Positions 7,376 to 25,189 of a stretch of 64,000 nt of DNA are shown here, in pieces. The notes under the pieces are model-generated. The model saw nothing but the letters and a program-made list of their open reading frames with translations, was not told where the DNA came from and did no database searches. A program made the translations under genes and the position numbers. The stretch's first letter is position 1, and each line of letters opens with the position of its first letter. Source of the DNA: a virus; the IMG/VR virus record IMGVR_UViG_3300035696_000005, positions 118,360-182,359 of that record; one strand, given 5' to 3'.

Positions 7376-7446
7376 TGGTACCCCCGTACAGATTCGAACT
7401 GTACAGCACGAGCTTAGAAGGCTCAGTTGGTATCCAAACCGGGGGC
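7376..7446 (-). tRNA. tRNA-Arg(TCT), minimal D-loop
   Basis: GAGC-CTTCTAA-GCTC anticodon arm; TTCGAAT T-loop; encoded CCA. Confidence 0.8.
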
Positions 7447-7716
7447 ACTGATAGTTCCTTTATAGCTATCGATTTCAACACCGTTACCTTTGCGGTAGGC
7501 GTACATTTTCACGTCCCGCACTGGGAAGATTACGATCTTCTTTCGTTCAAGTACATCGTGTACAACTTCTTGGATCATAACCGTGAAGTTTGGGTCTTCT
7601 ACTGATTTAATGCCGTAGTCTTGGTATTCAACCACAAGACCGGATAGGCGCTTATGTCGCCTATTGAAGATGTAGTTGAAGAGGTCTTTGAGCTCATCGA
7701 AGAGTCTTTTTATCAT
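7423..7716 (-). CDS. Hypothetical protein; stop codon lies inside tRNA-Arg(TCT)
   Basis: ORF 7423..7743; GGAGAAAGG RBS before ATG 7716. Confidence 0.5.
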   Translation of the reverse strand: MIKRLFDELKDLFNYIFNRRHKRLSGLVVEYQDYGIKSVEDPNFTVMIQEVVHDVLERKKIVIFPVRDVKMYAYRKGNGVEIDSYKGTISAPGLDTN

Positions 7717-7882
7717 CTGACTTTCCTTTCTCCCACGGCACACCCCTGATCAATATGATAATGCACTGACCAACAGCATAGCAGAACACGAATGCAGGAA
7801 TACTTGCCTCCGGCACGATAAATTTCATGAGAGCGCCCCAGAGCGACATCCAGGCAATGTGAAAGACGAAGTAGGTTAACAT
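7694..7882 (-). CDS. Small membrane protein
   Basis: Two hydrophobic stretches; AAGGAG RBS. Confidence 0.5.
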   Translation of the reverse strand: MLTYFVFHIAWMSLWGALMKFIVPEASIPAFVFCYAVGQCIIILIRGVPWEKGKSDDKKTLR

Positions 7883-8157
7883 TATGTGTCTCCTTTTAGA
7901 ACGGTCCTGGCTTCTATTGCAACACGCCTACAAGGCCCACAGCAATTGTTTCCGTCTGTCTTTTGCAGAATCGACTTTAGGACAGTTTCGAGCTGCTCGA
8001 TCCTATCTTCGTAACGATGTCTTGTCATACTCTTTCCGCGCTTGAATGCTTCCATATCAACTCTGATCAGAGCCGCTTCAGCAAAGTCAGCTATGTCACT
8101 AGGGTGATTATGTATCCAGTCTTCGCGGATTTTTTCTGCCACCTTTCTAAGATCCAT
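7882..8157 (-). CDS. Hypothetical protein
   Basis: Internal ATG (MDLRKVAE) of ORF 7882..8214, overlapping the stop of the RF-like gene. Confidence 0.5.
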   Translation of the reverse strand: MDLRKVAEKIREDWIHNHPSDIADFAEAALIRVDMEAFKRGKSMTRHRYEDRIEQLETVLKSILQKTDGNNCCGPCRRVAIEARTVLKGDT

Positions 8158-8521
8158 CTGAGTTCTCTTCGGTAAGTCCATCAACCCACTTTCCGCTTTC
8201 ATCTCTGGTCTCAACCTTAACCGCCTTCATTTCCTGATCGACTTTCTCGTCGATCTTGGCAAGAACTCCAGTGACTCGGGCTGTCTCAGTCTTAAGCCAG
8301 GCTTGAAATGTTTTACTTTGAATGCAGCGTTCAAAGGCTCGTTTCTTGTTCACATGTTGGTCTCGCTCGTCACGAGCTTCGCCAACAGCACCTGAGGCTT
8401 CGTGAACTACACGAACACCTGAGTTGACCTTGTTTTGATTCTGCCCTCCCTTGCCGCCGGAGCGAAAAGTATCGACTCTAAAGTCTTTTTTGGTGACGCT
8501 GAAGAGGATTTCTTTAGCCAT
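8147..8521 (-). CDS. Stand-alone GGQ peptidyl-tRNA hydrolase (RF-1 domain; ArfB/PrfH-like)
   Basis: DFRVDTFRSGGKGGQNQNKVNSGVRVVH...RDQHVNKKRA; 124 aa; no stop-codon recognition domain. Confidence 0.9.
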   Translation of the reverse strand: MAKEILFSVTKKDFRVDTFRSGGKGGQNQNKVNSGVRVVHEASGAVGEARDERDQHVNKKRAFERCIQSKTFQAWLKTETARVTGVLAKIDEKVDQEMKAVKVETRDESGKWVDGLTEENSDGS

Positions 8522-8531
8522 ACATCTCCTT

Positions 8532-8606
8532 TGGTCTCCCCACTCCGAATCTCACGGAGATTTCAAATTTAGGAAATTTGCGTCCTGTATATTGAACGAT
8601 GGGGAG
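8532..8606 (-). tRNA. tRNA-Arg(CCT)
   Basis: CAAAT-TTCCTAA-ATTTG; T-loop TGAGATT; encoded CCA. Confidence 0.8.
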
Positions 8607-8609
8607 GTC

Positions 8610-8810
8610 TTAATCTTCTAGCCAATGACTGAAAGGTCCGATCTCTTCGAGTTCTCGTTCGCGTTCGATATCTTCCTTCATTGATGAGCTAATAGCCATA
8701 GAGCCCATGTCTTCAAGTTCTCGTTCGCGTTCGATATCTTCTTTCATGGATGGGCTAATTCCCATTGCTCCGAAACCATCATCCTTTTTCTTCTTTCCCG
8801 AAGACCTCAT
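8610..8810 (-). CDS. Small acidic protein with internal 22-aa repeat
   Basis: IS.SMKEDIERERELE repeated twice; start uncertain. Confidence 0.35.
   Translation of the reverse strand: MRSSGKKKKDDGFGAMGISPSMKEDIERERELEDMGSMAISSSMKEDIERERELEEIGPFSHWLED
8645..8760. repeat. Imperfect direct repeat, 66-nt period
   Basis: tcttc(g/a)agttctcgttcgcgttcgatatcttc(c/t)ttcat occurs twice. Confidence 0.85.
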
Positions 8811-8991
8811 ATTCTGTTCTCCCTTCTAGTAACTGTTCCATGTCGAACTCGTTTGGAAAGTGTTTGAGACGGTAATAGGCTTCTTTCCTGATCCATTTTG
8901 GAACACCGGGAGTTTTCTTTGGGTCAAGTAATGCCCGCAGAAACTCTCTCGTATTCCTGATTGCTCTTGTTCTTTCGTAAGGTAGCGTCAT
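8779..8991 (-). CDS. Conserved small phage protein (MTLPYERTRA...LKHFP)
   Basis: ORF track; ATGA overlap. Confidence 0.65.
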   Translation of the reverse strand: MTLPYERTRAIRNTREFLRALLDPKKTPGVPKWIRKEAYYRLKHFPNEFDMEQLLEGRTEYEVFGKEEKG

Positions 8992-9662
8992 AGATCAAAC
9001 ACAATGGGTTCGTTTTCCGGGTCGTAGCTATATGTGCAGGTACTGGCGTTCACATAGAGCGTATCTCCCACCTTCACTTCGCCGTAAGCTTCGTGAATGT
9101 GTCCAAAGATATGAGCTTTGGGCTTAATTCGCTCCACAGCTTTTGCCAAATCCCAGCACCCCACATGTCCCGGAACCAATCCGACAGGATCATACTTGGT
9201 CCGTGTCTTCCTGAAAATATCATCCTGGATCAGATAGGGCGGTCCATGAGTGATGAGCACATCCGTATCCGTCGGGATCTTATCCCACATGATCTTGAGC
9301 GCGTTTCCCCTGGGAAGGTTAAACGCCCAGTCATAGAATTCTGGTTGCCAGGGTGAGCCATAGAACTTGAGTCCTTGAACGGTGACTGAGCTATCTTGCA
9401 GGTAGTGTCCTGCAACCTTCACCATGTCTCTGGCGAGCGTGGGGTTTTCCTCAAAGAGGAAATCGTGATTGCCACAAATCCAAACGACATCCTTGTATTT
9501 TCCTTTGTTGAGAAGGGTATCAACCCAGTCAACAAAGCGTTGAACTTCATCGATGTCTCCTCGCATACTGATATCACCCGAATGGACGAGGATATCTCCA
9601 TCAGGTAGTTTTAATTTTTTGTGTAGTCCGTGAGTGTCGGAAATAGCAACGATTCGGGGCAT
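8988..9662 (-). CDS. Metallophosphoesterase (MPPED/239FB-like)
   Basis: ISDTHG, HSGD, GNHD, LITHGPP, FGHIHE; AGGAG RBS before MPRIVAIS at 9662. Confidence 0.9.
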   Translation of the reverse strand: MPRIVAISDTHGLHKKLKLPDGDILVHSGDISMRGDIDEVQRFVDWVDTLLNKGKYKDVVWICGNHDFLFEENPTLARDMVKVAGHYLQDSSVTVQGLKFYGSPWQPEFYDWAFNLPRGNALKIMWDKIPTDTDVLITHGPPYLIQDDIFRKTRTKYDPVGLVPGHVGCWDLAKAVERIKPKAHIFGHIHEAYGEVKVGDTLYVNASTCTYSYDPENEPIVFDL

Positions 9663-9706
9663 AATGATTCTCCTAGTAATAATCCTATACCCGATTTGAT
9701 TAGAAG

Positions 9707-9781
9707 TGGTAGCCCTGCTTGGAATCGCACCAAGTTCTTCGGTTTCGTAGACCGATATCCTATCTATTGAACGACAGGGCC
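9707..9781 (-). tRNA. tRNA-Arg(ACG)
   Basis: TCGGT-CTACGAA-ACCGA; T-loop TGCGATT; CCA. Confidence 0.85.
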
Positions 9782-9883
9782 ACATGAGGTAAAGTGGAAG
9801 GCGTGTGGTAACAACATCTATCTCCGAATTCAGTACTAGCAACTGAAACTGACGCCACACGTGCGTCTAAAAGGAGATAGGAT

Positions 9884-10111
9884 ATGAAGCGTTATACGAT
9901 TGTCGAGCTTTGCTCTGTTGACCACCCCAATGCCGAGAAGATCAAGAAGTACAATAAGGACCTGGGCTTCCATGTCTATAAATACCGTGGTGCCTATATG
10001 CTCATCATCGGTGATGAGTATGTGTGGAGAGCTGACGATGTCGACTACTGTTACATTGAGGGCGGAATGTACGTCTTTAATGAAAAGGGCGAACCTGTAA
10101 AGGTCGCTTAA
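9884..10111 (+). CDS. Small hypothetical protein on the opposite strand
   Basis: AAGGAG RBS; 75 aa. Confidence 0.65.
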   Translation: MKRYTIVELCSVDHPNAEKIKKYNKDLGFHVYKYRGAYMLIIGDEYVWRADDVDYCYIEGGMYVFNEKGEPVKVA

Positions 10112-10113
10112 AT

Positions 10114-10187
10114 TGGAGCCCCAACCGGGAGTTGAACCCGGGCGTCCTGACTGGCAGTCAGGCATGCTACCGTAACATCTCTGAGGC
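10114..10187 (-). tRNA. tRNA-Gly(GCC)
   Basis: CCTGA-CTGCCAG-TCAGG; TTCAACT; TCCA. Confidence 0.9.
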
Positions 10188-10210
10188 ATTGAACTTGTAT
10201 TAGGAAAATT

Positions 10211-10250
10211 CCCCTATTGAAACGCTGTTCACCCAGTGTTTCAATAGGGG
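10211..10250 (+). promoter_or_regulatory. Long hairpin covering the RBS of the protease gene
   Basis: CCCCTATTGAAAC / GTTTCAATAGGGG perfect 13-bp stem, extendable by GCTG/CAGT; ATG at 10252. Confidence 0.7.
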
Positions 10251-10251
10251 T

Positions 10252-11019: not shown

Positions 11020-11120
11020 GCCGCTGTTTATCATTCACGGAAGTGTCGGCAGTTTAACGTAACTATGTGCTTTTTCACGATTTAGTGATCTCCTTATCAG
11101 TCACGTTATCATTCAAAAAT

Positions 11121-11195
11121 TGGAGCCCCGAGCGAGAGTCGAACTCGCTTCACCAGATTGGAAGTCTGGCACATCACCACCAATGTTTTCGAGGC
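11121..11195 (-). tRNA. tRNA-Gly(TCC)
   Basis: CCAGA-CTTCCAA-TCTGG; TTCGACT; TCCA. Confidence 0.9.
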
Positions 11196-11196
11196 A

Positions 11197-11271
11197 TGGA
11201 GCCGCTACCGGTGTTCGCACCCGGATCGCTACATTACCAATGTAGAGCTCTGCTACTTAAGCTATAGCGGC
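11197..11271 (-). tRNA. tRNA-Thr(GGT)
   Basis: CTACA-TTGGTAA-TGTAG; T-loop TGCGAAC; CCA. Confidence 0.85.
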
Positions 11272-11278
11272 ATTAAAA

Positions 11279-11352
11279 TGGTACCCCAGCAAGGAATTGC
11301 ACCCTGTCGAGCTGTTTCGAAGACAGCCATGCGTCTACTACATCACTGGGGC
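11279..11352 (-). tRNA. tRNA-Arg(TCG)
   Basis: GCTGT-CTTCGAA-ACAGC; T-loop TGCAATT; CCA. Confidence 0.85.
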
Positions 11353-11392
11353 TCAGGATATTGGTGCGCGGCCACGCACCTCACTGATAGTT

Positions 11393-11418
11393 AAAAAAGC
11401 CGAGCCCGAAGGCTCGGC
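11393..11418 (-). terminator. Intrinsic terminator
   Basis: GCCGAGCC-TTCG-GGCTCGGC-T6. Confidence 0.85.
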
Positions 11419-11422
11419 GAAA

Positions 11423-11668: not shown

Positions 11669-11675
11669 AAATCTC

Positions 11676-12416
11676 CTAGTCGATATTTTCCTGCTGGTAG
11701 ATTTCCATCTCTGGGAATCTTAGAGCAGTGAGTTTTCCGTAGTAAGGTCTCAACGGATCACCGAGAATCGTTATGCCCTTATAAGCACATCCCGTATCAA
11801 TGTTGGCATACCAGTCTTGGATATCAGGACCACTTTGCTGTGGCGTGTGTCCGTGGACGTTATACCAATTTTTGACGTTCTTCCTCGGTGGCTTGTAGCG
11901 GTTCCAGATGAAGGTCTGTCCGTCCCAGCCAAATTTTTTAACCTGATTCTCAAGATGACCCTGACCGACAGGGGCGTGAGTGATCAAAAGATGCCTTCCA
12001 TTCTTGTGCTTGAGTTCCTCGTACTCAAGATAAAGCGGAAGTGCCTTGATGTACTCTTGGTGCTTTTTCAGAACCTCGATACCTTCACAGGTGTGTGCTC
12101 TGTTGATTACTGTTTCTCCTGGATGCGGATAGAGTAGTCCATCTGGACAGCTACAGTAGCTTGCGTAAGCCTTAAGTCCTCCGTTGTAGAGCCACAAGCC
12201 TTCTTGCTTATCATCCGACATGAAATCATCGTGGTTTCCTTTGATACATGTGATCTTGTTATCGATGATGTATTGGATGAGCTCGCGGGTTCTTGGTCCA
12301 CGATCAGGGAGATCTCCTGCAACCACAAAAGGCTCGCCTGGAAATTTGGCCGTCATGTCTTCATGAAGCTTCTTGAACGTTAGAAAACATCCGTGCGGAT
12401 CTGTCGTGATAATCAT
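11676..12416 (-). CDS. Metallophosphoesterase (Ser/Thr phosphatase-like)
   Basis: TDPHG, GDLPDRG, GNHD, THAP, HGHTP, NIDTGC; AAGGAG RBS before ATG 12416. Confidence 0.9.
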   Translation of the reverse strand: MIITTDPHGCFLTFKKLHEDMTAKFPGEPFVVAGDLPDRGPRTRELIQYIIDNKITCIKGNHDDFMSDDKQEGLWLYNGGLKAYASYCSCPDGLLYPHPGETVINRAHTCEGIEVLKKHQEYIKALPLYLEYEELKHKNGRHLLITHAPVGQGHLENQVKKFGWDGQTFIWNRYKPPRKNVKNWYNVHGHTPQQSGPDIQDWYANIDTGCAYKGITILGDPLRPYYGKLTALRFPEMEIYQQENID

Positions 12417-12454
12417 ATAGATCTCCTTGGAAGTCTCATACCAGCATTTTAAAG

Positions 12455-12531
12455 TGGTAGGGATGGTGAGAATCGAACTCACTTGATGTCTTGCTCCCAA
12501 AGCAAGCGGCTAGCCTTTGGCCCACATCCCT
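12455..12531 (-). tRNA. tRNA-Pro(TGG)
   Basis: CTTGC-TTTGGGA-GCAAG; TTCGATT; ACCA. Confidence 0.85.
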
Positions 12532-12958: not shown

Positions 12959-13037
12959 TGGTGCCCCCAGCCAGCTCCGCCCTGGCACATTCACCGAGTC
13001 TCAGTCGATGCTCTCTACTAATCTGGAGTATAGGGGC
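12959..13037 (-). tRNA. tRNA-Leu(GAG), short variable loop
   Basis: ATCGA-CTGAGAC-TCGGT; T-loop GGCGGAG; ACCA. Confidence 0.7.
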
Positions 13038-13492: not shown

Positions 13493-13575
13493 TGGTGACC
13501 CTGGAGGGACTTGCACCCCCACGCCGAAGCATAAGTTCCTAAGACTTACGTGTCTGCTAATTCCACCACAGGGCC
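13493..13575 (-). tRNA. tRNA-Leu(TAG), long variable arm
   Basis: TAAGT-CTTAGGA-ACTTA; T-loop TGCAAGT; ACCA. Confidence 0.9.
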
Positions 13576-13581
13576 ACATCC

Positions 13582-14118
13582 CTACAAAAAGTCCTTGAGA
13601 TAAGACTCCCACACAGCCGGATCATTTGGCAAGTACTGGATTGTCATCGCAGGCTCCCATGAAGGTTTGAATGGCTCCCTAAGGAGTTTCATTTTAGCTT
13701 CTTGAGGTGTCCTGTTTCTCTTCTTCTGGTTGCAAGGTTTGCAAGCAGTCACGATGTTAGTCCAAGACTTGTAAGAGTCTGGCGTTCGATTACTCTTAGG
13801 AATTACGTGGTCAAGCGTGAGCTTGGCTGCTGGAAATTTCTTACAGCAGTATTGGCAGATGTAGCCATCTCGCCAGAACACGTTGGGCCTGGAGAATTTT
13901 ACGAAACGCCTCTTATAGTGTCCCGCTCCATTAAGCATCATTACGCAAGGAAGATTGAGAGTAAGGCGCTGAGAGCGTATGGGAATATCAGCGTATTCTT
14001 CTAAAACATCCGCCTTACCCTCGTAAAGCTTTTCAATGGCTTTCCTACCATTGATTACATCGATAGGCTGCATGCCTTGATCAAGAAGTAACACACGGAC
14101 TTTTTCTAAGTTTGCCAT
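13582..14118 (-). CDS. HNH endonuclease (McrA-like)
   Basis: RDGYICQYC, LTLDHVIPKS, NIVTACKPCNQKK. Confidence 0.9.
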   Translation of the reverse strand: MANLEKVRVLLLDQGMQPIDVINGRKAIEKLYEGKADVLEEYADIPIRSQRLTLNLPCVMMLNGAGHYKRRFVKFSRPNVFWRDGYICQYCCKKFPAAKLTLDHVIPKSNRTPDSYKSWTNIVTACKPCNQKKRNRTPQEAKMKLLREPFKPSWEPAMTIQYLPNDPAVWESYLKDFL

Positions 14119-14145: not shown

Positions 14146-14224
14146 TGGTGCCGGTGATCGGACTTGCACCGATAAGCAGTAAGGTTTGAGCTTACTAGGT
14201 ATGCTAGATTCCCTTCACACCGGC
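14146..14224 (-). tRNA. tRNA-Leu(CAA), short variable loop
   Basis: GTAAG-CTCAAAC-CTTAC; T-loop TGCAAGT; ACCA. Confidence 0.8.
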
Positions 14225-14695: not shown

Positions 14696-14771
14696 TGGTG
14701 CCCGTGATGGGTACTGCCCCCAAAAGACGGCGGATTTTAAGTCCACCCGATATACTATTCTCTACACAGGC
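14696..14771 (-). tRNA. tRNA-Leu(TAA), short variable loop
   Basis: GTGGA-CTTAAAA-TCCGC; T-loop GGCAGTA; ACCA. Confidence 0.75.
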
Positions 14772-14775: not shown

Positions 14776-14849
14776 TGGCGTCGCTTAAGGGAGTTGAACC
14801 CTTCTTGTCCGACTGAGAATCGGAAGTCCTACCGATAGACGAAAGCGAC
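14776..14849 (-). tRNA. tRNA-Glu(CTC)
   Basis: TCCGA-TTCTCAG-TCGGA; TTCAACT; GCCA. Confidence 0.9.
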
Positions 14850-15153: not shown

Positions 15154-15229
15154 TGGTGGACTACATGGGAATCGAACCCATCAAAAACTGATTGCAAATC
15201 AGCCTACTTCCCCAGCTGTTTCGTAGCCC
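15154..15229 (-). tRNA. tRNA-Ala(TGC)
   Basis: GCTGA-TTTGCAA-TCAGT; G3:U70 pair; TTCGATT; ACCA. Confidence 0.9.
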
Positions 15230-15288: not shown

Positions 15289-15471
15289 TTAGCCGAACAG
15301 AATTCGGCGCGCTTGAGTCAGCGTCTGAGCCGACATGAATTCGGCTTCCACTTTTTTCTCTTGCGCACGCTTCTTGTGAAGCGCTTTGTAGTTGGTCAGA
15401 CTACGAAATGGGCTTAACACCCATCTTTCCTTCCCGTCCTGGGTAAGGAACTTCCTCTTGATCTGGTTCAT
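15289..15471 (-). CDS. Small basic hypothetical protein, 60 aa
   Basis: ORF track; GAAGGAGG RBS located in a hairpin. Confidence 0.55.
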   Translation of the reverse strand: MNQIKRKFLTQDGKERWVLSPFRSLTNYKALHKKRAQEKKVEAEFMSAQTLTQARRILFG

Positions 15472-15573
15472 AACAGACCCTCCTTCAGCTTTTGAGCGAA
15501 GAAGAGGTCTAGAAAGGATCTTCCGTAGTCATAGGCAGATGATGCCTGATGATGTTTTCAAAATCAAATTAAA

Positions 15574-15648
15574 TGGCAGGGGATGAAGGTAGTGCGCCCT
15601 CTTCTGCTGGTTTGGAATCAGCCGTGTTACTTTTATCACTAATCCCCT
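15574..15648 (-). tRNA. tRNA-Trp(CCA)
   Basis: GCTGA-TTCCAAA-CCAGC; AGGGG acceptor; T-loop CGCACTA; GCCA. Confidence 0.8.
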
Positions 15649-15659: not shown

Positions 15660-15734
15660 TGGGGTCGCGTACGGGTTCTGCCCCCGCCTGTTCACCTTGA
15701 AAGGATGATGACCTCACTAGAAGTCGAACGCGAC
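15660..15734 (-). tRNA. tRNA-Glu(TTC)
   Basis: TCATC-CTTTCAA-GGTGA; GTCGC acceptor like Glu(CTC); T-loop GGCAGAA. Confidence 0.8.
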
Positions 15735-15739: not shown

Positions 15740-15816
15740 TGGGGTGATCGACGGGAGTTGCACCCGCTTACCCTGCTTCACAGGCAGGTACCTCAGCTAC
15801 TTCGGTTTCAACCACC
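15740..15816 (-). tRNA. tRNA-His(GTG)
   Basis: CCTGC-CTGTGAA-GCAGG; encoded G-1 and C73. Confidence 0.85.
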
Positions 15817-16342: not shown

Positions 16343-16407
16343 TCGGGGGAGGTGATTCGATACACCATCTCCGGCTTTCGCCGGGCTCTAACTTAAGCTA
16401 TCCCCCG
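16343..16407 (-). ncRNA. Anticodon-less tRNA mimic (GAAA tetraloop)
   Basis: Acceptor CGGGGGA/TCCCCCG, D-arm GCTT..GAGC, CCGGC-GAAA-GCCGG arm, GGTG-TATCGAAT-CACC arm; no encoded CCA. Confidence 0.65.
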
Positions 16408-16410: not shown

Positions 16411-16482
16411 TGGATGCAGGTCCTAGGGATGCCCTAGGGTCTTCTGGTTATGAGCCAGACATGGTCTCTCCACTAACCTGCA
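16411..16482 (-). tRNA. tRNA with CAT anticodon (Met or Ile2)
   Basis: TCTGG-CTCATAA-CCAGA; TGCAGGT/ACCTGCA acceptor; T-loop GGCATCC. Confidence 0.7.
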
Positions 16483-16518: not shown

Positions 16519-16591
16519 TGGTCCGCGCTCCGGTTCCGCCCCGGTCCCTAACTCTTATAAGGAGTTTGTTGTTCTACTCAACTAAACGCGG
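16519..16591 (-). tRNA. tRNA-Ile(TAT)
   Basis: AACTC-CTTATAA-GAGTT; T-loop GGCGGAA; ACCA. Confidence 0.75.
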
Positions 16592-17566: not shown

Positions 17567-17641
17567 TGGTGCATCCCCACGGTACTGCCCCGTGTGCACT
17601 GCCGTGTAAAAGCAGCCGCTCACTTTTTGCTGTTGAGATGC
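17567..17641 (-). tRNA. tRNA-Val(TAC)
   Basis: CTGCT-TTTACAC-GGCAG; T-loop GGCAGTA; ACCA. Confidence 0.75.
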
Positions 17642-17642: not shown

Positions 17643-17716
17643 TGGTAGCCCTACCAGGAATCGGACCTGGGTTTCTTCCATGTCACGGAAGCGCTCTTCC
17701 ATTGAGTTATAGGGCT
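17643..17716 (-). tRNA. tRNA-Val(GAC)
   Basis: CTTCC-GTGACAT-GGAAG; T-loop TCCGATT; ACCA. Confidence 0.8.
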
Positions 17717-17807: not shown

Positions 17808-17882
17808 TGGTGGGCCGCCCGAGGCTCGAACTCGGTTCTACGGATTAAGAGTCCGCTGTGTCACCCGGTACACTTGCGACCC
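17808..17882 (-). tRNA. tRNA-Lys(CTT)
   Basis: GCGGA-CTCTTAA-TCCGT; TTCGAGC; ACCA. Confidence 0.9.
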
Positions 17883-17905: not shown

Positions 17906-17979
17906 TGGTAGGCCCGAACGGTACTGCCCCGTTTTCCTTAGGTTAAAAGCCTAATGTATCACTTTAATACTTCGAGCCC
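17906..17979 (-). tRNA. tRNA-Lys(TTT)
   Basis: TTAGG-CTTTTAA-CCTAA; T-loop GGCAGTA; ACCA. Confidence 0.85.
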
Positions 17980-17981: not shown

Positions 17982-18056
17982 TGGAGCCTCCGGTGTGAAT
18001 TGCACACACGCTTTCTCTTTTGCAGAGAGATATCTCCCTAATTCGATCACGGAGGC
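17982..18056 (-). tRNA. tRNA-Cys(GCA)
   Basis: TCTCT-CTGCAAA-AGAGA; T-loop TGCAATT; TCCA. Confidence 0.85.
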
Positions 18057-18065: not shown

Positions 18066-18141
18066 TGGAGCCAGCTCCGGCGTTCGCATCCGGTTTACCT
18101 GCTTACAAGACAGGAGTTTTACTACATAGAACTAAGCTGGC
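18066..18141 (-). tRNA. tRNA-Thr(TGT)
   Basis: CCTGT-CTTGTAA-GCAGG; T-loop TGCGAAC. Confidence 0.85.
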
Positions 18142-18142: not shown

Positions 18143-18217
18143 TGGAGCCTCCACACGGACTTGCGCCGAGCTATCAGCTTTACGAAAGCTGCACATCGCT
18201 ATCTATGTTTTGAAGGC
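18143..18217 (-). tRNA. tRNA-Thr(CGT)
   Basis: CAGCT-TTCGTAA-AGCTG; T-loop CGCAAGT. Confidence 0.8.
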
Positions 18218-18226: not shown

Positions 18227-18301
18227 TGGCGGAGCTAAGGGGAATTGAACCCCTGTTTTCCGATCGACAGTCGGATGTAATTGCCACTATACGATAGCTC
18301 C
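18227..18301 (-). tRNA. tRNA-Asp(GTC), first tRNA of cluster B
   Basis: TCCGA-CTGTCGA-TCGGA; TTCAATT; GCCA. Confidence 0.9.
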
Positions 18302-18496: not shown

Positions 18497-18613
18497 TTAG
18501 ATCCAGCCCCTCTTAGTACCCGGTTCAATACCGGTGACCAAATGAGCGCACATATCCAGTCCACGCTTTGTGGCTGGTTTTGCTGCTCTGAGGTTGGACC
18601 ATAGGTTAAACAT
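18497..18613 (-). CDS. Leader peptide B, 38 aa (MFNLWSNLRAAKPATKRGLDMCAHLVTGIEPGTKRGWI)
   Basis: Manual translation; ATG 7 nt after a -10 box; last codons AGG GGC TGG ATC complementary to terminator 5' arm. Confidence 0.75.
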   Translation of the reverse strand: MFNLWSNLRAAKPATKRGLDMCAHLVTGIEPGTKRGWI

Positions 18614-18620
18614 AAGTTTA

Positions 18621-18649
18621 AGAATAATGGGGTTAGGAAGAAGTTGCAA
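18621..18649 (-). promoter_or_regulatory. Sigma70-like promoter of leader B / tRNA cluster B
   Basis: TTGCAA-17 nt-TATTCT-7 nt-ATG. Confidence 0.75.
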
Positions 18650-18668
18650 CATTTATTTTTGAATAGCT

Positions 18669-20128: not shown

Positions 20129-20135
20129 TATCGAA

Positions 20136-20681: not shown

Positions 20682-20761
20682 AATTACCTCCTATGTTCTT
20701 GCGAGAGTATTCGAACGACCTAGACCATCCAGGTTCCTTCGAAGCACTTCTCATTGTGTTG

Positions 20762-21001: not shown

Positions 21002-21238
21002 TTATTCCTATTCATACGTCCTCCTCAACGGCACCTAAGCCATGCCGTAACAAACATTATTCCCATTCCGACGGACACAGCCACCGACGTAAGCAGTATG
21101 TCCTTCCCGACTAGTATTACGATATTCATCTGACACCTTCCCGATAGTTAAAGAAAAAGCCATAAGCCTAGTTGCGAGGCTAAACTTATTTCTTTTCCTC
21201 ATTATTCTTATACCCGGATCATGAGTAATTTTGCCCGC

Positions 21239-21267
21239 TTGACGGCAGGCTTTTCCTAGGATAGATT
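21239..21267 (+). promoter_or_regulatory. Sigma70-like promoter for 21331 gene
   Basis: TTGACG-17 nt-TAGATT. Confidence 0.65.
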
Positions 21268-21330
21268 TGTCCTTGTCCCTAGCTCTTAAACCCGAGGAGT
21301 CGAGCTACCCTCATAACAAGGAGATCCCTC

Positions 21331-22305: not shown

Positions 22306-22307
22306 TT

Positions 22308-22337
22308 AAAAAAGAGGGGCACCATTTGGTGCCCCTC
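22308..22337 (-). terminator. Terminator between convergent 21331 gene and Ro60
   Basis: GAGGGGCACCA..TGGTGCCCCTC-T6. Confidence 0.85.
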
Positions 22338-22341
22338 AATC

Positions 22342-23976
22342 TTACAACTCAACCGAATTAACAACTGATTCGACATCCATTCCAAGCGTACCTACAGCTC
22401 CGAATAAGGCTGGAGTGAGCGTGTTATACACAATCATGGAATCACAGTTTGGAACTGCCGACCAAGGATTTGAAGCTTGGTTGATCAGAATCAGCTTTGA
22501 ACGTGAATTGACATTCTTTTGATACTTCAAGAATGCCTGATCCAGCGGTGTTCCCTGATTTTGGGCTTCATCGGTGATGATGATGAACTTATCCACATGC
22601 TTATCTTCAGCCAACGCTTTTTCGATAATCATGGCCGGGTTGGTATAGCCAGCAGCATAAGGATATTCAAGTACCATCTTCATGTCGGTCTTACGGTTTC
22701 CAGTCCAGCGAGGAAATGCTGCAGCACCACGAGATGCCCCAACGGAGCTTCCTTCGAAATGAAGCCTGCTATTTTCAAACCAGCTAAACCGAACGTCTCT
22801 AGCTTTACCATAGAATGCGTAAGCAAAAACGTTAGCAACTAGATACGACCATTGGTCAGAGTTTCCAAGACCACCGCGCATTGAGCCTGAGCTGTCAACA
22901 CTGACTTCAATAACGTCATCAGCGATCCCATCGATTGGAGTGTCGAAAGAAGAAGCTAAAGCTTCAGCCTGGATTCCCTTGATCTGTGGATGACTCGTAT
23001 GAACGTAGCTCTTGACGATGTCCAGCGGATTCATCCTTCCGCGCACAATAGCTTCAGGAGAAAGCATCTCACGATACTTCTCGATCGCACCGGTGAGCTC
23101 GAATACGCCGTGCTCGATGAATGAACGAGTATTCAAAAGAAGACCTTGAGTACCGCAGCTCATCATCAATGCAAACCACCAGCGTGGGTTGCTGCAAGGG
23201 ACTGGCTTAAGCGTATCAAACGGAAGCTTATTCTCCAGGATGATTCGACCCACAGCATCCAAATCGAAGTTCGGACGCTGCGCCATCGAGAGCACCTGCT
23301 CGTATGCCTTCTGCTGTGTTCCGTAAGGAACACCCTTACGGGTTCCTTCCTGCCCAGGGAACACGTAATCAAGCAGCGGGTTATTCCAGTCCGGGTGAGT
23401 CAAGCGAAGGAGGATTCGCATGTCATCCTTGTACTGGATCGTATAGCGCTCAAGCTTCTCAGGGCTCCAGCTCTTCATGACCTTACCGACCCAGCCTTGC
23501 TGGCGGTAGCCGAGACCCTTCGTGTACTTCTTTTGCATCTCGACATATTCCCGAAGCTGCTTCGGGTGATAAGTCGAAAGAAGATCCACAATGACGTCCC
23601 TGTAGTCAGCACAGAAGTCCTTGTTTGCGGACAGCGCAATAACGCCAAGCTTAGGCGACATCTTGATATTGCTTCGACGAGCAAGCACAAGCGCCTTAAG
23701 CAGAAACAGAGGGTTGGTCTGTGCTGCTTCAGAGAACCTCTTTAGCATCTCGGAGGCTTGCTTATCTGCATCGCTGTAATACGTATTTCCAATCACACCG
23801 CACTGAGACATACGGAAAATATCACGAGCAAACGAAGGAGTGAATGCCGCGTATCCATGAGGATTGGTTGTGGTCGGAGTTTTTCCGCTTGCGTGCTTTT
23901 CCATAAGCTTTCCGCCACGGCTTGAAGCAGGCTTTGGTTCCCGGGTATTTCGAAATGCGTCGACGTTGTTTGCCAT
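22342..23976 (-). CDS. rsr: Ro60/Rsr: TROVE + vWA RNA-binding protein
   Basis: TROVE-type N-terminus (IGNTYY..NPLFLLKALVLARR), vWA MIDAS VDSSGSM, FIIITDE; AGGGAG RBS before ATG 23976; Y-like RNAs adjacent. Confidence 0.85.
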   Translation of the reverse strand: MANNVDAFRNTREPKPASSRGGKLMEKHASGKTPTTTNPHGYAAFTPSFARDIFRMSQCGVIGNTYYSDADKQASEMLKRFSEAAQTNPLFLLKALVLARRSNIKMSPKLGVIALSANKDFCADYRDVIVDLLSTYHPKQLREYVEMQKKYTKGLGYRQQGWVGKVMKSWSPEKLERYTIQYKDDMRILLRLTHPDWNNPLLDYVFPGQEGTRKGVPYGTQQKAYEQVLSMAQRPNFDLDAVGRIILENKLPFDTLKPVPCSNPRWWFALMMSCGTQGLLLNTRSFIEHGVFELTGAIEKYREMLSPEAIVRGRMNPLDIVKSYVHTSHPQIKGIQAEALASSFDTPIDGIADDVIEVSVDSSGSMRGGLGNSDQWSYLVANVFAYAFYGKARDVRFSWFENSRLHFEGSSVGASRGAAAFPRWTGNRKTDMKMVLEYPYAAGYTNPAMIIEKALAEDKHVDKFIIITDEAQNQGTPLDQAFLKYQKNVNSRSKLILINQASNPWSAVPNCDSMIVYNTLTPALFGAVGTLGMDVESVVNSVEL

Positions 23977-23990
23977 AAATCTCCCTACAT

Positions 23991-24038
23991 AAAAAAAGAG
24001 AGGGACATAGCTTGCACAATGCAAGGTGGCCCCTCTCT
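23991..24038 (-). terminator. Terminator between Y-like RNAs and Ro60 CDS
   Basis: AGAGAGGGGC..GTCCCTCTCT-T6 with inner TTGCA/TGCAA hairpin. Confidence 0.7.
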
Positions 24039-24049
24039 GAGTTGAAAGA

Positions 24050-24112
24050 GCCACTGTGAATTGTAGAACCGGTTTTTCGTTTCAAGTGATGAACGGTTCC
24101 ACGAAGAGTGGC
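24050..24112 (-). ncRNA. Y-like RNA 4
   Basis: GCCACT/AGTGGC outer stem; AACCGTTCATC..AAACCGGTT core. Confidence 0.65.
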
Positions 24113-24135
24113 GAACTTGGTACTTCAATTGTTTT

Positions 24136-24262
24136 ACTACTATAAACGGATCAACCGGTTTTTAGCGTCCTAGCCATTAGACGACCTAGACCAAGGTCTT
24201 GGGTGAGATTCGAACTCACATTTCCATCTTGTGTAGATGAACGGTTAATTAACCAGAGTAGT
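24136..24262 (-). ncRNA. yrlA: YrlA-like Y RNA 3 with circularly permuted tRNA module
   Basis: Same core; insert 24166..24219 = T-arm GTGAG-TTCGAAT-CTCAC, loop-closed acceptor CCAAGAC/GTCTAGG, D-arm GTCT-AATGGCT-AGGAC. Confidence 0.75.
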
Positions 24263-24280
24263 AAATTTTCAAACAACAAA

Positions 24281-24340
24281 GCTACTGTGAATCGGACAAC
24301 CGGTGTTCAGTGTATAGATGAACGGTTATCCAAGAGTAGC
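24281..24340 (-). ncRNA. Y-like RNA 2
   Basis: GCTACT/AGTAGC stem; AACCGTTCATC..CACCGGTT core. Confidence 0.65.
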
Positions 24341-24361
24341 GAACTTCAAAAACTTTTTGTG

Positions 24362-24430
24362 GGGAGCTACTGTGTTTTGATCAACCGGTTTTCATTTTTG
24401 CCGATGAACGGTTAATCGAGAGTAGCTCCC
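24362..24430 (-). ncRNA. Y-like RNA 1
   Basis: GGGAGCTACT/AGTAGCTCCC stem; AACCGTTCATC..AAACCGGTT core. Confidence 0.65.
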
Positions 24431-24436
24431 TCAACT

Positions 24437-24450
24437 TACTTATAACAGAG
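24437..24450 (-). promoter_or_regulatory. Promoter motif upstream of Y-like RNA 1
   Basis: CTCTGTTATAAGTA, identical to 5626..5639; TTGACT further upstream. Confidence 0.5.
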
Positions 24451-24486
24451 TACCGGAAGATTGTTCCTAGTCAACTCTTTTTTAAA

Positions 24487-24579
24487 TGGCGGAGAAAGCT
24501 GGACTCGAACCAGATCCGGTCAAAGCCGGACTCAGAGTTTAGCAAACTCGCTATGCCGCCCGAGCATAGTTCATTCTCC
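24487..24579 (-). tRNA. tRNA-Ser(GCT)
   Basis: GAGT-TTGCTAA-ACTC; long variable arm; GCCA. Confidence 0.9.
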
Positions 24580-24584
24580 AAATA

Positions 24585-24674
24585 TGGCGGAGGGTTACGG
24601 AGTCGAACCGTCACGCTTTCGCGTGTGGTGCCTGTTTTCAAGACAGGTAGTCGTCCACACAACACAAACCCTCC
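24585..24674 (-). tRNA. tRNA-Ser(TGA)
   Basis: CCTGT-CTTGAAA-ACAGG; long variable arm; GCCA. Confidence 0.9.
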
Positions 24675-24681
24675 AAACTTT

Positions 24682-24755
24682 TGGTTGGGCTACTCTGGAT
24701 CGAACAGAGGTTAACACCTTCAGAGAGTGCAGTCTTGCCACTAGACGATAGCCCA
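24682..24755 (-). tRNA. tRNA-Gln(CTG)
   Basis: GCACT-CTCTGAA-GGTGT; TGGGCTA acceptor; TTCGATC. Confidence 0.85.
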
Positions 24756-24763
24756 ACATAAAC

Positions 24764-24837
24764 TGGTAGGGGATACCCGTGCTGCCCGGGTGCGACAACT
24801 TTCAAAGAGTTGCAGGCTACTGTTACCTCAATCCCCA
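24764..24837 (-). tRNA. tRNA-Gln(TTG)
   Basis: CAACT-CTTTGAA-AGTTG; unpaired 1:72; T-loop GGCAGCA. Confidence 0.8.
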
Positions 24838-24849
24838 ACATCAAAACTA

Positions 24850-24925
24850 TGGTGCCGCGAATCCGGATCGAACGGATACCTCTTGCTCTTCAGGCGAGCG
24901 TGCAGACCAACTACACCATCCCGGC
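24850..24925 (-). tRNA. tRNA-Phe(GAA)
   Basis: CTCGC-CTGAAGA-GCAAG; TTCGATC; ACCA. Confidence 0.85.
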
Positions 24926-24937
24926 ACATTAAAATTT

Positions 24938-25024
24938 TGGTGCCCGCATAAGGAGTCGAACCTTATTGCCCCGAAGAGAACGCGTTTACAGCGCGCCGAG
25001 TTCACCGGAACTCTCACTGCAGGC
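24938..25024 (-). tRNA. tRNA-Tyr(GTA)
   Basis: CGCG-CTGTAAA-CGCG; long variable arm; ACCA. Confidence 0.9.
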
Positions 25025-25034
25025 ACATTAAACT

Positions 25035-25110
25035 TGGCGCATGGGTTGAGACTCGAACTCAACTTTCCCGAGTTAACAGCTCGGTTCCATCACCCGATGG
25101 ATACCCATGC
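25035..25110 (-). tRNA. tRNA-Asn(GTT) copy 1
   Basis: CCGAG-CTGTTAA-CTCGG; GCCA. Confidence 0.9.
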
Positions 25111-25111
25111 A

Positions 25112-25189
25112 TGGCTGCGGGAGCTGGGATCGAACCAGCCTCATTTCGCATTAACAGTGCGACGCACTCACCCTGAACGCTATCCCGCA
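25112..25189 (-). tRNA. tRNA-Asn(GTT) copy 2, first tRNA of cluster A
   Basis: TCGCA-CTGTTAA-TGCGA; GCCA. Confidence 0.85.

What the first reader, a model, noticed from the sequence alone, without database searches (positions are those of the whole stretch)
7376..25189. Coordinated remodelling of the tRNA elbow in 21 of 37 tRNAs
Seen (manual tally): T-loop starts TTC in 15, TCC in 1, TGC in 9, TGA in 1, CGC in 2 and GGC in 9. The G55 tRNAs show an AG-type D-loop (AAAGT, TAG, CAG) instead of GG, whereas the U55/C55 tRNAs keep GG (except D-loop-reduced Arg-TCT). 8 of 9 G54 tRNAs have G58, all T54 have A58, and Trp has C54/C58. Arg(CCT) appears to swap G19-C56 for T19-A56. Established: G18-psi55, G19-C56 and the 54-58 reverse-Hoogsteen pair build the elbow; TruB and TrmA/TrmFO modify 55 and 54. 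Inference: compensatory redesign that removes dependence on these modifications and may evade elbow-reading nucleases or sensors.
Basis: partly seen in the sequence, partly recalled or inferred. Interest (0 to 1): 0.7.

Follow-up and report, generated by a model that had tools for sequence, protein, structure and literature searches.

The report
Phage tRNAs with rewired elbow
A 182-kb peat phage carries 37 intact tRNA genes, and 21 of them replace two of the most conserved contacts of the tRNA corner (G18-U55 and T54-A58) with matched alternatives. These look like working tRNAs that no longer carry the U54-U55 site needed by two tRNA-modifying enzymes and by a published anti-phage nuclease.

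Summary
There are 37 minus-strand tRNA genes, and each is followed by an encoded CCA. The T-loop tally is exactly as reported: TTC 15, TCC 1, TGC 9, TGA 1, CGC 2, GGC 9.

- **18/55.** All 21 G55 tRNAs lack the D-loop GG and have AG instead. Arg-CCT has AU, matched by A56.
- **54/58.** These positions co-vary: U-A, G-G and C-C, with one C-A (Thr-CGT) and one G-U exception.
- **Alignment.** The covariation survives alignment to covariance models.
- **Orthologs.** In orthologs from related phages, every clear G55/U55 switch comes with an A18/G18 switch. Positions 54 and 58 changed together in 8 of 8 pairs. Position 19-56 swaps U-A for C-G.
- **Stems.** Rewired orthologs show 125 compensated stem changes against 5 broken pairs, so they are under selection.

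What is kept: the 19-56 outer pair, purine 57, G53-C61 and U33. The redesign therefore removes the U54-U55 sequence, not the elbow shape.

The purpose is inferred. The rewired tRNAs lose pseudouridine 55 (and m5U54 in 11 of them) and probably resist T-loop-cutting nucleases such as the published CbCash. Neutral compensated drift is the main rival.

This scan has reported the same A18/G55 design on other DNA. I found no paper describing it for tRNAs. tmRNAs of Caulobacter and a jakobid mitochondrion show related T-loop changes.

The parts
7379..7446 (-). tRNA-Arg(TCT), canonical T-loop TTCGAAT, D-loop reduced to 3 nt; CCA at 7376-7378
8535..8606 (-). tRNA-Arg(CCT), rewired: T-loop TGAGATT (G55, A56), D-loop AATATACA (A18, U19)
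9710..9781 (-). tRNA-Arg(ACG), rewired: TGCGATT, D-loop AATAGATA
10117..10187 (-). tRNA-Gly(GCC), canonical TTCAACT / GG
11124..11195 (-). tRNA-Gly(TCC), canonical TTCGACT / GG
11200..11271 (-). tRNA-Thr(GGT), rewired: TGCGAAC, D-loop AAGTAGCA
11282..11352 (-). tRNA-Arg(TCG), rewired: TGCAATT, D-loop AGTAGAC
12458..12531 (-). tRNA-Pro(TGG), canonical TTCGATT / GG
12962..13037 (-). tRNA-Leu(GAG), rewired: GGCGGAG (G54-G58), D-loop AGATTAGTAG; short variable region
13496..13575 (-). tRNA-Leu(TAG), rewired: TGCAAGT, D-loop AATTAGCAG; 11-nt variable region
14149..14224 (-). tRNA-Leu(CAA), rewired: TGCAAGT, D-loop GAATCTAGCAT; 5-nt variable region
14699..14771 (-). tRNA-Leu(TAA), rewired: GGCAGTA (G54-G58); weak D stem
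14779..14849 (-). tRNA-Glu(CTC), canonical TTCAACT / GG; its ortholog in a relative is rewired
15157..15229 (-). tRNA-Ala(TGC), canonical TTCGATT / GG
15577..15648 (-). tRNA-Trp(CCA), rewired: CGCACTA (C54, G55, C58), D-loop TAAAAGTA
15663..15734 (-). tRNA-Glu(TTC), rewired: GGCAGAA, D-loop TCTAGTGA
15743..15815 (-). tRNA-His(GTG), rewired: TGCAACT, D-loop AAGTAGCTG; G at -1 (15816) and C73
15829..15900 (-). tRNA-Met(CAT), rewired: TGCAAGT, D-loop ATAAAGTA
16414..16482 (-). tRNA(CAT), Met or Ile2; rewired: GGCATCC (G54, G55, U58), 5-nt D-loop AGAGA
16522..16591 (-). tRNA-Ile(TAT), rewired: GGCGGAA, D-loop AGTAGAA; T stem only 4 bp
17570..17641 (-). tRNA-Val(TAC), rewired: GGCAGTA, D-loop AAAAAGTG; weak D stem
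17646..17716 (-). tRNA-Val(GAC), TCCGATT (C55) with GG D-loop
17729..17799 (-). tRNA-Ile(GAT), rewired: GGCGGTA, D-loop TAAAGTG
17811..17882 (-). tRNA-Lys(CTT), canonical TTCGAGC / GG
17909..17979 (-). tRNA-Lys(TTT), rewired: GGCAGTA, D-loop TAAAGTG; Rfam aligns A under G18 and GG under U54-U55
17985..18056 (-). tRNA-Cys(GCA), rewired: TGCAATT, D-loop AATTAGGG (18-19 register ambiguous; orthologs have AG)
18069..18141 (-). tRNA-Thr(TGT), rewired: TGCGAAC, D-loop TATGTAGTA
18146..18217 (-). tRNA-Thr(CGT), rewired: CGCAAGT (C54, G55, A58), D-loop AGATAGCG
18230..18301 (-). tRNA-Asp(GTC), canonical TTCAATT / GG
24490..24579 (-). tRNA-Ser(GCT), class II, canonical TTCGAGT / GG
24588..24674 (-). 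tRNA-Ser(TGA), class II, canonical TTCGACT / GG
24685..24755 (-). tRNA-Gln(CTG), canonical TTCGATC / GG
24767..24837 (-). tRNA-Gln(TTG), rewired: GGCAGCA, D-loop AACAGTA; its ortholog in a relative has AGCATAA (A54-U58)
24853..24925 (-). tRNA-Phe(GAA), canonical TTCGATC / GG; all related records carry a rewired Phe instead
24941..25024 (-). tRNA-Tyr(GTA), class II, canonical TTCGACT / GG
25038..25110 (-). tRNA-Asn(GTT), canonical TTCGAGT / GG
25115..25189 (-). tRNA-Asn(GTT), canonical TTCGATC / GG

Best explanation
**Shown.** These are 37 real tRNA genes that together serve all 20 amino acids. In 21 of them the inner contacts of the elbow have been exchanged as matched sets.
- G18-U55 becomes A18-G55.
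- U54-A58 becomes G54-G58 in 8, with single cases of C-C, C-A and G-U. Relatives also show A54-U58.
- In Arg-CCT, G19-C56 becomes U19-A56.
- The frame of the elbow is kept: a Watson-Crick 19-56 outer pair, purine 57, a 7-nt loop closed by G53-C61, U33 and an encoded CCA.

**Inferred.**
- The rewired RNAs fold into a normal L shape. They are probably cut out by RNase P, since U at -1 is kept and His has G at -1.
- They are charged according to their anticodon and identity elements, and used by the ribosome.
- The practical consequence is that they lack the U54-U55 dinucleotide. They therefore cannot receive pseudouridine 55, and 11 of them cannot receive m5U54.
- They should also not be substrates for enzymes that need that dinucleotide. 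The documented example is the type III CRISPR-associated Schlafen nuclease CbCash, which cuts 5' of U55 and is blocked by single U54 or U55 changes.

**Most likely benefit.** Part of the phage's own near-complete decoding set stays intact when host T-loops are attacked.

**How the design spreads.** It spreads through the array by compensated point changes and by replacement of tRNA genes.
For: **Real, selected genes.**
- 37 of 37 have an encoded CCA, 30 of 37 have U at -1, and G at -1 occurs only in His.
- U33 is present in 38 of 38 and purine 57 in 38 of 38, counting the extra tRNA just upstream of the window.
- Mean cloverleaf energy is equal in the two classes: -21.1 against -20.9 kcal/mol.
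- In 30 rewired ortholog-like pairs, 125 stem positions changed on both sides with pairing kept, against 5 broken. Canonical pairs give 85 against 8.

**Matched contacts.**
- Over 151 CCA-encoding tRNAs: U55 with GG 92, G55 with AG 49, G55 with AU plus A56 2. There is no clear mixed combination.
- 54x58 counts are U-A 116, G-G 24, A-U 6, C-A 3, C-C 1, G-U 1.
- Ortholog switches appear in Glu-CTC, Glu-TTC (TCTAGTGA with G55 against TCTGGTGA with U55), Val-GAC and Trp.
- Eight of 8 changes at 54/58 were double changes.
- 19-56 is U-A here and C-G in a relative.
- The curated Rfam model places A under G18 and G under U55.

**Not marginal.** Under simple wobble the 37 tRNAs read 90% of 44,267 phage codons, and rewired tRNAs alone read 41%.

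**Pressure on tRNA is plausible.**
- CbCash needs U54 and U55 (PMC13462974).
- Phage tRNAs are known to escape anticodon nucleases through sequence change (PMC10264068).
- A Ro60-like gene with four Y-RNA-like hairpins sits inside this array. A relative carries RtcB in the equivalent gap between its tRNA clusters.
Against: - No expression, charging, structure or cleavage data exist.
- Only 21 of 37 tRNAs are rewired. A nuclease that cuts every UUC T-loop would still disable 15 of them and with them 13 amino acids.
- Relatives carry canonical versions of tRNAs that are rewired here (Lys-TTT, Val-TAC, Trp, three Leu) and the reverse (Phe, Glu-CTC). There is therefore no uniform direction.
- Other near-universal core nucleotides are also loose in this phage, in both elbow classes. 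U8-A14 is present in only 19 of 38, against 16 of 17 in distant relatives. This fits general relaxation as well as targeted escape.
- The host and its defences are unknown.
- The geometry of A18-G55 and of the alternative 54-58 pairs is not modelled.
Confidence: 0.5

Rival explanations
1. **Neutral compensated drift.** The rewired tRNAs work, but the redesign has no benefit of its own. Phage tRNAs act only for minutes in an infected cell, so the modifications and extra stability tied to U54, U55, U8 and A14 matter little. Alternative pairings that preserve the fold are then reached by compensated changes and spread by gene turnover.
For: - U8-A14 and 15-48 are also loose, in both elbow classes. 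Variable loops of 4 nt and class-I-like Leu tRNAs are common.
- The state is a mosaic: 21 of 37 here, 15 of 32 and 11 of 22 in two relatives, with switches in both directions.
Against: - No intermediates (G18 with G55, or A18 with U55) are seen among 151 tRNAs. Single changes therefore look deleterious, and repeated valley crossing is harder without a benefit.
- The same end state recurs across many tRNA identities.
- According to earlier, unchecked notes of this scan, it also recurs in unrelated phages.
Confidence: 0.3
2. **Self/non-self mark for a phage-made activity.** The phage, or a partner element, destroys or disables host tRNAs through their UUC T-loop. The rewired tRNAs are the ones meant to survive.
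For: - The set is nearly complete for decoding.
- RNA quality-control genes lie in the array.
- Two metallophosphoesterases and an HNH nuclease lie among the tRNAs, but no function is assigned to them.
Against: - No Schlafen-type domain is detected in the genome.
- No candidate tRNA nuclease was identified.
- Sixteen of the phage's own tRNAs would be hit, including the only tRNAs for Gly, Pro, Ala, Asp, Ser, Phe, Tyr and Asn.
Confidence: 0.1
3. **Decaying pseudogenes or non-translational tRNA mimics.** The G55 genes would be decoys, or partners of the Ro60-like protein, rather than adaptors.
For: - Half are missed by standard finders.
- A few have weak D stems or a 4-bp T stem: Leu-TAA, Val-TAC, Ile-TAT.
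- A Ro60-like gene and a tRNA-like Y RNA module are nearby.
Against: - Compensated stem changes outnumber broken pairs 125 to 5.
- U33, purine 37, CCA, discriminator bases and His G at -1 are intact.
- The 21 rewired tRNAs have 20 different anticodons and never duplicate a canonical one.
- They are the only tRNAs here for Thr, Leu, Trp, His, Met, Ile and Cys.
- A leader peptide upstream of the 29-tRNA cluster uses exactly the 15 amino acids that the cluster serves.
Confidence: 0.05
4. **Numbering or alignment artefact.** The apparent covariation would come from hand-placed D-loop and T-loop registers.
For: - D-loop length varies.
- Four rows fall one column out of register in the covariance-model alignment.
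- Rfam aligns Cys as GG.
Against: - T-loop positions are fixed by 5-bp stems and a 7-nt loop.
- 54x58 is the top non-helical pair in the unedited alignment.
- Orthologs fix the D-loop register: TCTAGTGA against TCTGGTGA, and AATAGATA against AATGGATTA.
- Rfam's own alignment agrees for Lys-TTT and Thr-TGT.
Confidence: 0.02

Closest known systems
Canonical bacterial and phage elongator tRNA (Rfam RF00005). Its elbow is G18-pseudouridine 55, G19-C56 and T54-A58, with purine 57 intercalated (PMC4810234).
   Same: - Same cloverleaf, 7-nt T-loop closed by G53-C61, Watson-Crick 19-56 outer pair, purine 57 and U33.
- Same encoded CCA and identity elements, such as His G at -1 with C73, Cys U73 and Leu A73.
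   Different: - Position 55 is G, and position 18 is A.
- 54-58 is G-G, C-C or C-A here (A-U only in relatives) in 11 of the 21, and then position 60 is usually A.
- A57 is preferred over G57.
Suppressor tRNAs selected in E. coli from libraries with randomised D- and T-loops (Zagryadskaya, Doyon and Steinberg, Nucleic Acids Res 2003). Cited from memory; the paper could not be opened.
   Same: As I recall it, functional clones carried G54-G58 or G54-A58 in place of U54-A58. That argues these pairs can stand in for the reverse-Hoogsteen pair, and G54-G58 is the commonest alternative here.
   Different: - Those were laboratory constructs of a single tRNA.
- Here the alternatives occur naturally in many tRNA identities, together with A18-G55.
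Two-piece tmRNAs of Caulobacter crescentus and of the Reclinomonas americana mitochondrion (PMC1168896)
   Same: The paper states that the nucleotide matching E. coli tmRNA U342 (tRNA position 55) is G in Caulobacter. It also states that U341-U342 are both G in R. americana. These correspond to the UGC-type and GGC-type T-loops seen here.
   Different: - tmRNA is not a decoding tRNA and has a reduced D-loop equivalent bound by SmpB.
- No partner covariation is described there, and I did not inspect tmRNA sequences myself.
Phage tRNAs that escape tRNA-targeting defences by sequence change (PMC10264068, PMC11555353)
   Same: The logic is the same: the phage brings its own tRNAs, and their sequence differs at the site the nuclease reads.
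   Different: - The described changes are in the anticodon loop.
- PMC10264068 contains no mention of T-loop, D-loop or elbow.
tRNA-Pyl and animal mitochondrial tRNAs that lack G18, G19 and T-pseudouridine-C (PMC7609411)
   Same: They are natural, working tRNAs without the universal D-loop and T-loop signatures.
   Different: - Those have shrunken or absent D/T-loop contact and altered stem lengths.
- Here loop sizes are normal and the D/T contact co-varies, so it is kept.
- The review mentions neither G55 nor phages.

Membership tests
tRNA (Rfam RF00005, decoding adaptor) | Cloverleaf with 7/4/5/5-bp stems and 7-nt anticodon and T loops | tested here: met
   Met by all 37, with few mismatches. 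Exceptions are a 4-bp T stem in Ile-TAT and weak D stems in Leu-TAA and Val-TAC.
tRNA (Rfam RF00005, decoding adaptor) | Score at or above the Rfam gathering threshold (29 bits) | tested here: inconclusive
   - 23 of 37 reach 29 bits for RF00005.
- The three class II tRNAs match only tRNA-Sec below its threshold.
- Eleven, mostly of the GGC type, are found only by the window-trained model R1.
tRNA (Rfam RF00005, decoding adaptor) | U33, purine 37 and a 3' CCA | tested here: met
   U33 is present in 38 of 38, position 37 is A or G in 38 of 38, and CCA is encoded in 37 of 37.
tRNA (Rfam RF00005, decoding adaptor) | Aminoacylation and use on the ribosome | not testable with these tools
   Only indirect evidence: identity elements are kept and stems are conserved through compensated changes.
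Canonical tRNA elbow | G18 and U55 (pseudouridine 55) | tested here: not met
   21 of 37 have G55 with A18.
Canonical tRNA elbow | U54-A58 reverse-Hoogsteen pair | tested here: not met
   11 of 37 have another combination: G-G 8, G-U 1, C-C 1, C-A 1.
Canonical tRNA elbow | Watson-Crick 19-56 pair and purine 57 | tested here: met
   19-56 is G-C in 35 (Cys by orthology) and U-A in Arg-CCT, with Arg-TCT not assignable (3-nt D-loop). Position 57 is always a purine.
Mitochondrial-type tRNAs without D-loop/T-loop contact | Loss of conserved loop sizes and of D/T covariation | tested here: not met
   The T-loop is always 7 nt. Positions 18/55 and 19/56 co-vary, which implies the contact is kept.
Phage tRNAs that escape immune tRNA nucleases | Sequence differs from host tRNA at the nuclease's recognition or cleavage site | tested here: inconclusive
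   - The U54-U55 site needed by CbCash is absent in the 21 G55 tRNAs and altered (C55) in Val-GAC.
- The host, its tRNAs and its defences are unknown.
Phage tRNAs that escape immune tRNA nucleases | Demonstrated resistance to cleavage and rescue of infection | not testable with these tools
   This needs a bench assay.

The most novel reading that the evidence does not exclude
Nature holds a second, self-consistent design of the tRNA elbow: A18-G55 with G54-G58, A54-U58 or C54-N58, plus A60. It supports normal decoding without pseudouridine 55 and m5U54. Phages adopt it repeatedly because it makes their tRNAs invisible to immune nucleases and other enzymes that read the universal U54-U55 site. 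This clade would then show the switch in progress, tRNA by tRNA.
Probability: 0.35. Interest if true: 0.85.

Novelty: new variant of a known kind. Interest (0 to 1): 0.72.

Why it matters
**Why the positions matter.** U55 and G18 are among the most conserved nucleotides in biology, and textbooks treat the T-pseudouridine-C loop as universal.

**What a working natural alternative would offer.**
- It acts as a ready-made double-mutant experiment on why cells keep U54, U55 and their modifications.
- It would give a new route by which phages can escape tRNA-directed immunity. That route sits in the T-loop, whereas the published cases are in the anticodon loop.
- It points to tRNA scaffolds that are blind to TruB, TrmA and T-loop nucleases, which may be useful for orthogonal translation.

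**A practical point.** ARAGORN with default settings found 5 of the 21 rewired genes. Rfam at gathering score found 8, none of them of the GGC type. Phage tRNA censuses are therefore likely to undercount this class.

Tried and rejected
**Searches for relatives.**
- No close phage was found in the INPHARED collection.
- A search for relatives through the Ro60-like protein found nothing.
- The pattern TAAAGTGAT...GGGGCRGTACC found nothing in viral contigs.
- Relatives cannot be drawn for a virus record.
- The metagenome scan with the rewired Phe pattern gave only two short contigs, which I did not analyse.
- Record G004, found through the shared rewired tRNA-Phe, has no detectable homolog of the SNF2 helicase. 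I therefore do not call it a relative.

**Expression.** No RNA holder was listed among the sequencing runs. The two holders are peat metagenome DNA, and no reads were laid.

**Tests that proved unsuitable.**
- "Any GG in the D-arm" proved too crude a test. It gave 13 exceptions, several caused by a GG at the end of the loop (as in the rewired Phe) or by very short D-loops.
- Mean cloverleaf energies do not separate the two classes.

**Candidates rejected.**
- 15400-15473 has no CCA.
- The ARAGORN "tRNA-Gln" at 24195-24282 is the tRNA-like insert of a Y-like RNA.
- 16343-16407 is a tRNA-shaped element with a GAAA tetraloop in place of the anticodon loop and no CCA.

**Genes not found in the genome.** RtcB, a CCA-adding enzyme and a Schlafen domain were not detected.

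**Literature.**
- The Steinberg 2003 paper could not be opened.
- Full-text searches for G55, U55G or A18 together with tRNA and phage found no description of this design.

Full report
**What is there**

The window is the last 64 kb of a 182,359-bp IMG/VR virus record rated complete. DNA runs that hold it are peat metagenomes.

Standard finders see only part of the tRNA set. ARAGORN with default settings finds 18 and Rfam at gathering score finds 17. Three further searches raise this to 37 genes, all on the minus strand between 7379 and 25189:
- a cloverleaf scan that ignores T-loop sequence;
- relaxed ARAGORN;
- a covariance model (R1) built from the window's own tRNAs and run without filters.

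Several features mark them as real genes:
- Every one is followed by a discriminator base and an encoded CCA.
- 30 of 37 have T at -1, and the only G at -1 belongs to tRNA-His, which also has C73.
- U33 and a purine at 37 are universal.
- The plus strand of the whole window yields three weak cloverleaves.
- The set covers all 20 amino acids. Under simple wobble it reads every sense codon except UCY, CCY and GCY, which is 90% of 44,267 codons in 139 phage ORFs.

**The observation**

Positions 54-56 read TTC 15, TCC 1, TGC 9, TGA 1, CGC 2 and GGC 9.

The 21 G55 tRNAs have AG where the others have GG. Arg-CCT has AU together with A56. Arg-TCT has a 3-nt D-loop. Two cases are ambiguous: Cys (TAGGG) and the CAT tRNA at 16414-16482, which has a 5-nt D-loop.

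For 54/58, G54 goes with G58 in 8 of 9, T54 always goes with A58, Trp is C54/C58 and Thr-CGT is C54/A58.

**Formal alignment**

The covariation survives alignment to covariance models.
- In the unedited model alignment, 54x58 is the strongest column pair outside the helices (0.93 bits). 18x55 scores 0.55 bits, although four rows with a 3-nt stretch after position 19 sit one column out of register.
- The curated Rfam tRNA model places A under consensus G18 and G under U55 for Lys-TTT and Thr-TGT. It places GG under U54-U55 for Lys-TTT. It aligns Cys as GG.

Two further links emerged:
- A non-U54 goes with A60 (G-G-A 17, A-U-A 5).
- G55 prefers A57 (32 A to 17 G, against 7 A to 41 G with U55).

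**Relatives**

The SNF2 helicase at 30556-32619 has about 68 homologs at 44-69% identity, many on contigs of 160-180 kb. I obtained the tRNA regions of the following records:

| Record | Link to this phage |
|---|---|
| R69 | helicase 69% |
| R68 | helicase 68% |
| R63 | helicase 63% |
| G001-G003 | helicase about 50% |
| G004-G006 | share a rewired tRNA-Phe |

G004 has no detectable helicase homolog, so its kinship is open.

The share of rewired tRNAs differs between records:
- The 50% relatives have only canonical tRNAs (17 parsed).
- G004 has 1 of 26 rewired (Phe), plus a Thr-GGT with A19-U56.
- R63 has 11 of 22 and R69 has 15 of 32.
- This phage has 21 of 37.

Over the 151 CCA-encoding tRNAs the combinations are U55 with GG 92, G55 with AG 49, and G55 with AU plus A56 2. 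The remainder are very short D-loops or register problems. I saw no clear G18 with G55, and no A18 with U55.

**Ortholog switches**

Among 55 pairs with the same anticodon and at least 60% identical stems:
- Every unambiguous G55/U55 difference comes with an A18/G18 difference:
  - Glu-CTC: ATCGGTA/TTCAACT here, ATTAGTA/GGCAGTA in R63.
  - Glu-TTC: TCTAGTGA/GGCAGAA here, TCTGGTGA/ATCGTAA in R63.
  - Val-GAC: three states across three phages.
  - Trp.
- Positions 54 and 58 differ together in 8 pairs and singly in none. One example is G-G against A-U in Gln-TTG.
- Arg-CCT has U19-A56 here and C19-G56 in R69.

These are separate events in different tRNAs. The association is therefore not a single inherited accident.

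Many same-anticodon pairs are too different to be in-place descendants. Gene replacement therefore also moves the two designs around.

**Are the rewired genes alive?**

Yes, by every sequence test available.
- Rewired ortholog pairs show 125 stem positions changed on both sides with pairing kept, against 5 broken. Canonical pairs show 85 against 8.
- Several rewired tRNAs are 90-100% identical in their stems to their R69 counterparts, while the helicase protein is 69% identical.
- Mean cloverleaf energies are the same in both classes.
- The 21 rewired tRNAs carry 20 different anticodons, and none duplicates a canonical one.
- They are the only tRNAs here for Thr, Leu, Trp, His, Met, Ile and Cys.
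- Expected identity features are present: A73 in all four Leu, U73 in Cys, G73 in Trp, and G1-C72 with C2-G71 in the three Thr. These rules are from established knowledge of E. coli identity sets.

**What is kept and what is changed**

Kept:
- the 7-nt loop closed by G53-C61 (35 of 38);
- C56 (37 of 38), or a swapped Watson-Crick 19-56 pair;
- purine 57 (38 of 38).

According to the elbow review PMC4810234, the outer face of the 19-56 pair is the flat surface that RNase P, the ribosomal L1 stalk and T-boxes stack on. G18 intercalates next to 57 and bonds to pseudouridine 55.

The redesign therefore leaves the surface used by shape-readers alone. It rewrites the inner contacts and, with them, the U54-U55 sequence.

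One structural point is inference only: G55 N1-H might replace U55 N3-H in the turn, and the A18 amino group might bond to G55 O6.

**Likely purpose**

Two consequences follow directly:
- There is no pseudouridine 55 in 21 tRNAs.
- There is no m5U54 in the 11 with G54 or C54.

A published anti-phage enzyme fits the change. CbCash is a Schlafen nuclease activated by type III CRISPR signalling. It cuts tRNAs mainly in the T-loop, immediately 5' of U55, and single mutations of U54 or U55 abolish cleavage (PMC13462974).

Phage tRNAs are already known to dodge anticodon nucleases by changing the anticodon loop (PMC10264068, PMC11555353). That work does not mention the T- or D-loop.

The array also holds a Ro60-like gene preceded by four Y-RNA-like hairpins. 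A relative has the RNA ligase RtcB in the equivalent gap between its tRNA clusters. Both point to RNA damage as a theme.

Several facts count against a simple escape story:
- Sixteen tRNAs keep U55 or C55.
- Relatives differ in which tRNAs are rewired.
- U8-A14 is also loose in both classes, at 19 of 38 here against 16 of 17 in distant relatives. This fits relaxed constraint.

I therefore give escape from U54-U55-reading enzymes about 0.35-0.4, neutral compensated drift about 0.3, and the existence of a working alternative elbow about 0.85.

**Known or new**

- Full-text searches found no description of natural A18/G55 tRNAs.
- A review of non-canonical tRNAs mentions neither G55 nor phages.
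- There are partial precedents:
  - G at the position equivalent to U55 in Caulobacter tmRNA, and GG for U54-U55 in a jakobid mitochondrial tmRNA (PMC1168896).
  - From memory, G54-G58 in laboratory-selected suppressor tRNAs (Steinberg laboratory, 2003).
- This scan has already reported the same design in several other phages and in Verrucomicrobia tRNA arrays. I did not check those reports.
- What this locus adds is a half-converted set, with close relatives that show the switches tRNA by tRNA.

Noticed in passing
window 24060-24440 (-) and 22342-24054 (-): Four tandem hairpins share a conserved outer stem and core (GCTACTCT ... AACCGTTCATC ... AAACCGGTT ... CACAGTAGC). They lie directly upstream of a 570-aa Ro60-like gene (Pfam vWA_Ro60; PHROG 850, annotated 'RNA-binding protein'). 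The third hairpin carries a tRNA-like insert with a canonical TTCGAAT T-loop, which ARAGORN calls 'tRNA-Gln' at 24195-24282. This looks like a phage Ro60 / Y-RNA module of the YrlA and YrlB kind.
   Followed up: partly
window 25644-25865 (-) and 18497-18652 (-): Short ORFs precede the two tRNA clusters.
- One ends MTKNFSSSYFNSNQQSWSGSVRV, rich in exactly the amino acids of the next eight tRNAs (Asn, Tyr, Phe, Gln, Ser).
- In the other, after residue 7 of its internal 38-aa reading, only the 15 amino acids served by the next 29 tRNAs appear. Of its codons, 15 match rewired anticodons exactly and 11 match canonical ones.

They look like leader-peptide controls. Only the peptide content was checked here.
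   Followed up: partly
window 12962-13037, 13496-13575, 14149-14224, 14699-14771 (-): All four tRNA-Leu genes have short variable regions (5, 6, 6 and 11 nt) instead of the long arm of bacterial class II tRNA-Leu, while Ser and Tyr keep long arms. The same holds in related records that have canonical elbows, so this trait is independent of the elbow change.
   Followed up: partly
window, all tRNAs (positions 8 and 14): The near-universal U8-A14 pair is present in only 19 of 38 tRNAs. The others are U-U 6, A-U 4, A-A 4, G-G 2 and three singles, in both elbow classes. Distant relatives have it in 16 of 17. Some cases may reflect the D-stem register.
   Followed up: partly
window 16343-16407 (-): A tRNA-shaped element lies just 3' of the CAT tRNA. 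It has a 7-bp acceptor stem and a T arm with loop ATCGAAT. A GAAA tetraloop on a 5-bp stem stands where the anticodon loop should be, and there is no CCA (R1 score 16.8 bits).
   Followed up: partly
genome 114918-114995 (-), about 3.4 kb before the window: A well-formed tRNA with anticodon CTA (amber suppressor) has a canonical elbow and scores 51.6 bits with Rfam. CTA tRNAs also occur in the distant relatives G001, G002 and G004.
   Followed up: no
L026 18135-18228 (+) and L032 9936-10027 (+): In two related records, one tRNA-Asn(GTT) carries a 22-24-nt variable region, so it is a class II-like Asn.
   Followed up: no
L037 17433-17504 (+), compared with window 9710-9781: The R69 counterpart of tRNA-Arg(ACG) has the same acceptor stem and rewired elbow but anticodon GCG.
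   Followed up: no
window 8988-9860 (-), 11676-12500 (-), 13582-14118 (-): Two calcineurin-like metallophosphoesterases and an HNH endonuclease are interspersed among the tRNA genes. Their function was not examined.
   Followed up: no
L001 16196-16465 and L026 16264-16536: Relatives encode a small protein matching Pfam Acb5 between the primase and the tRNA cluster. I did not look for it in the window.
   Followed up: no
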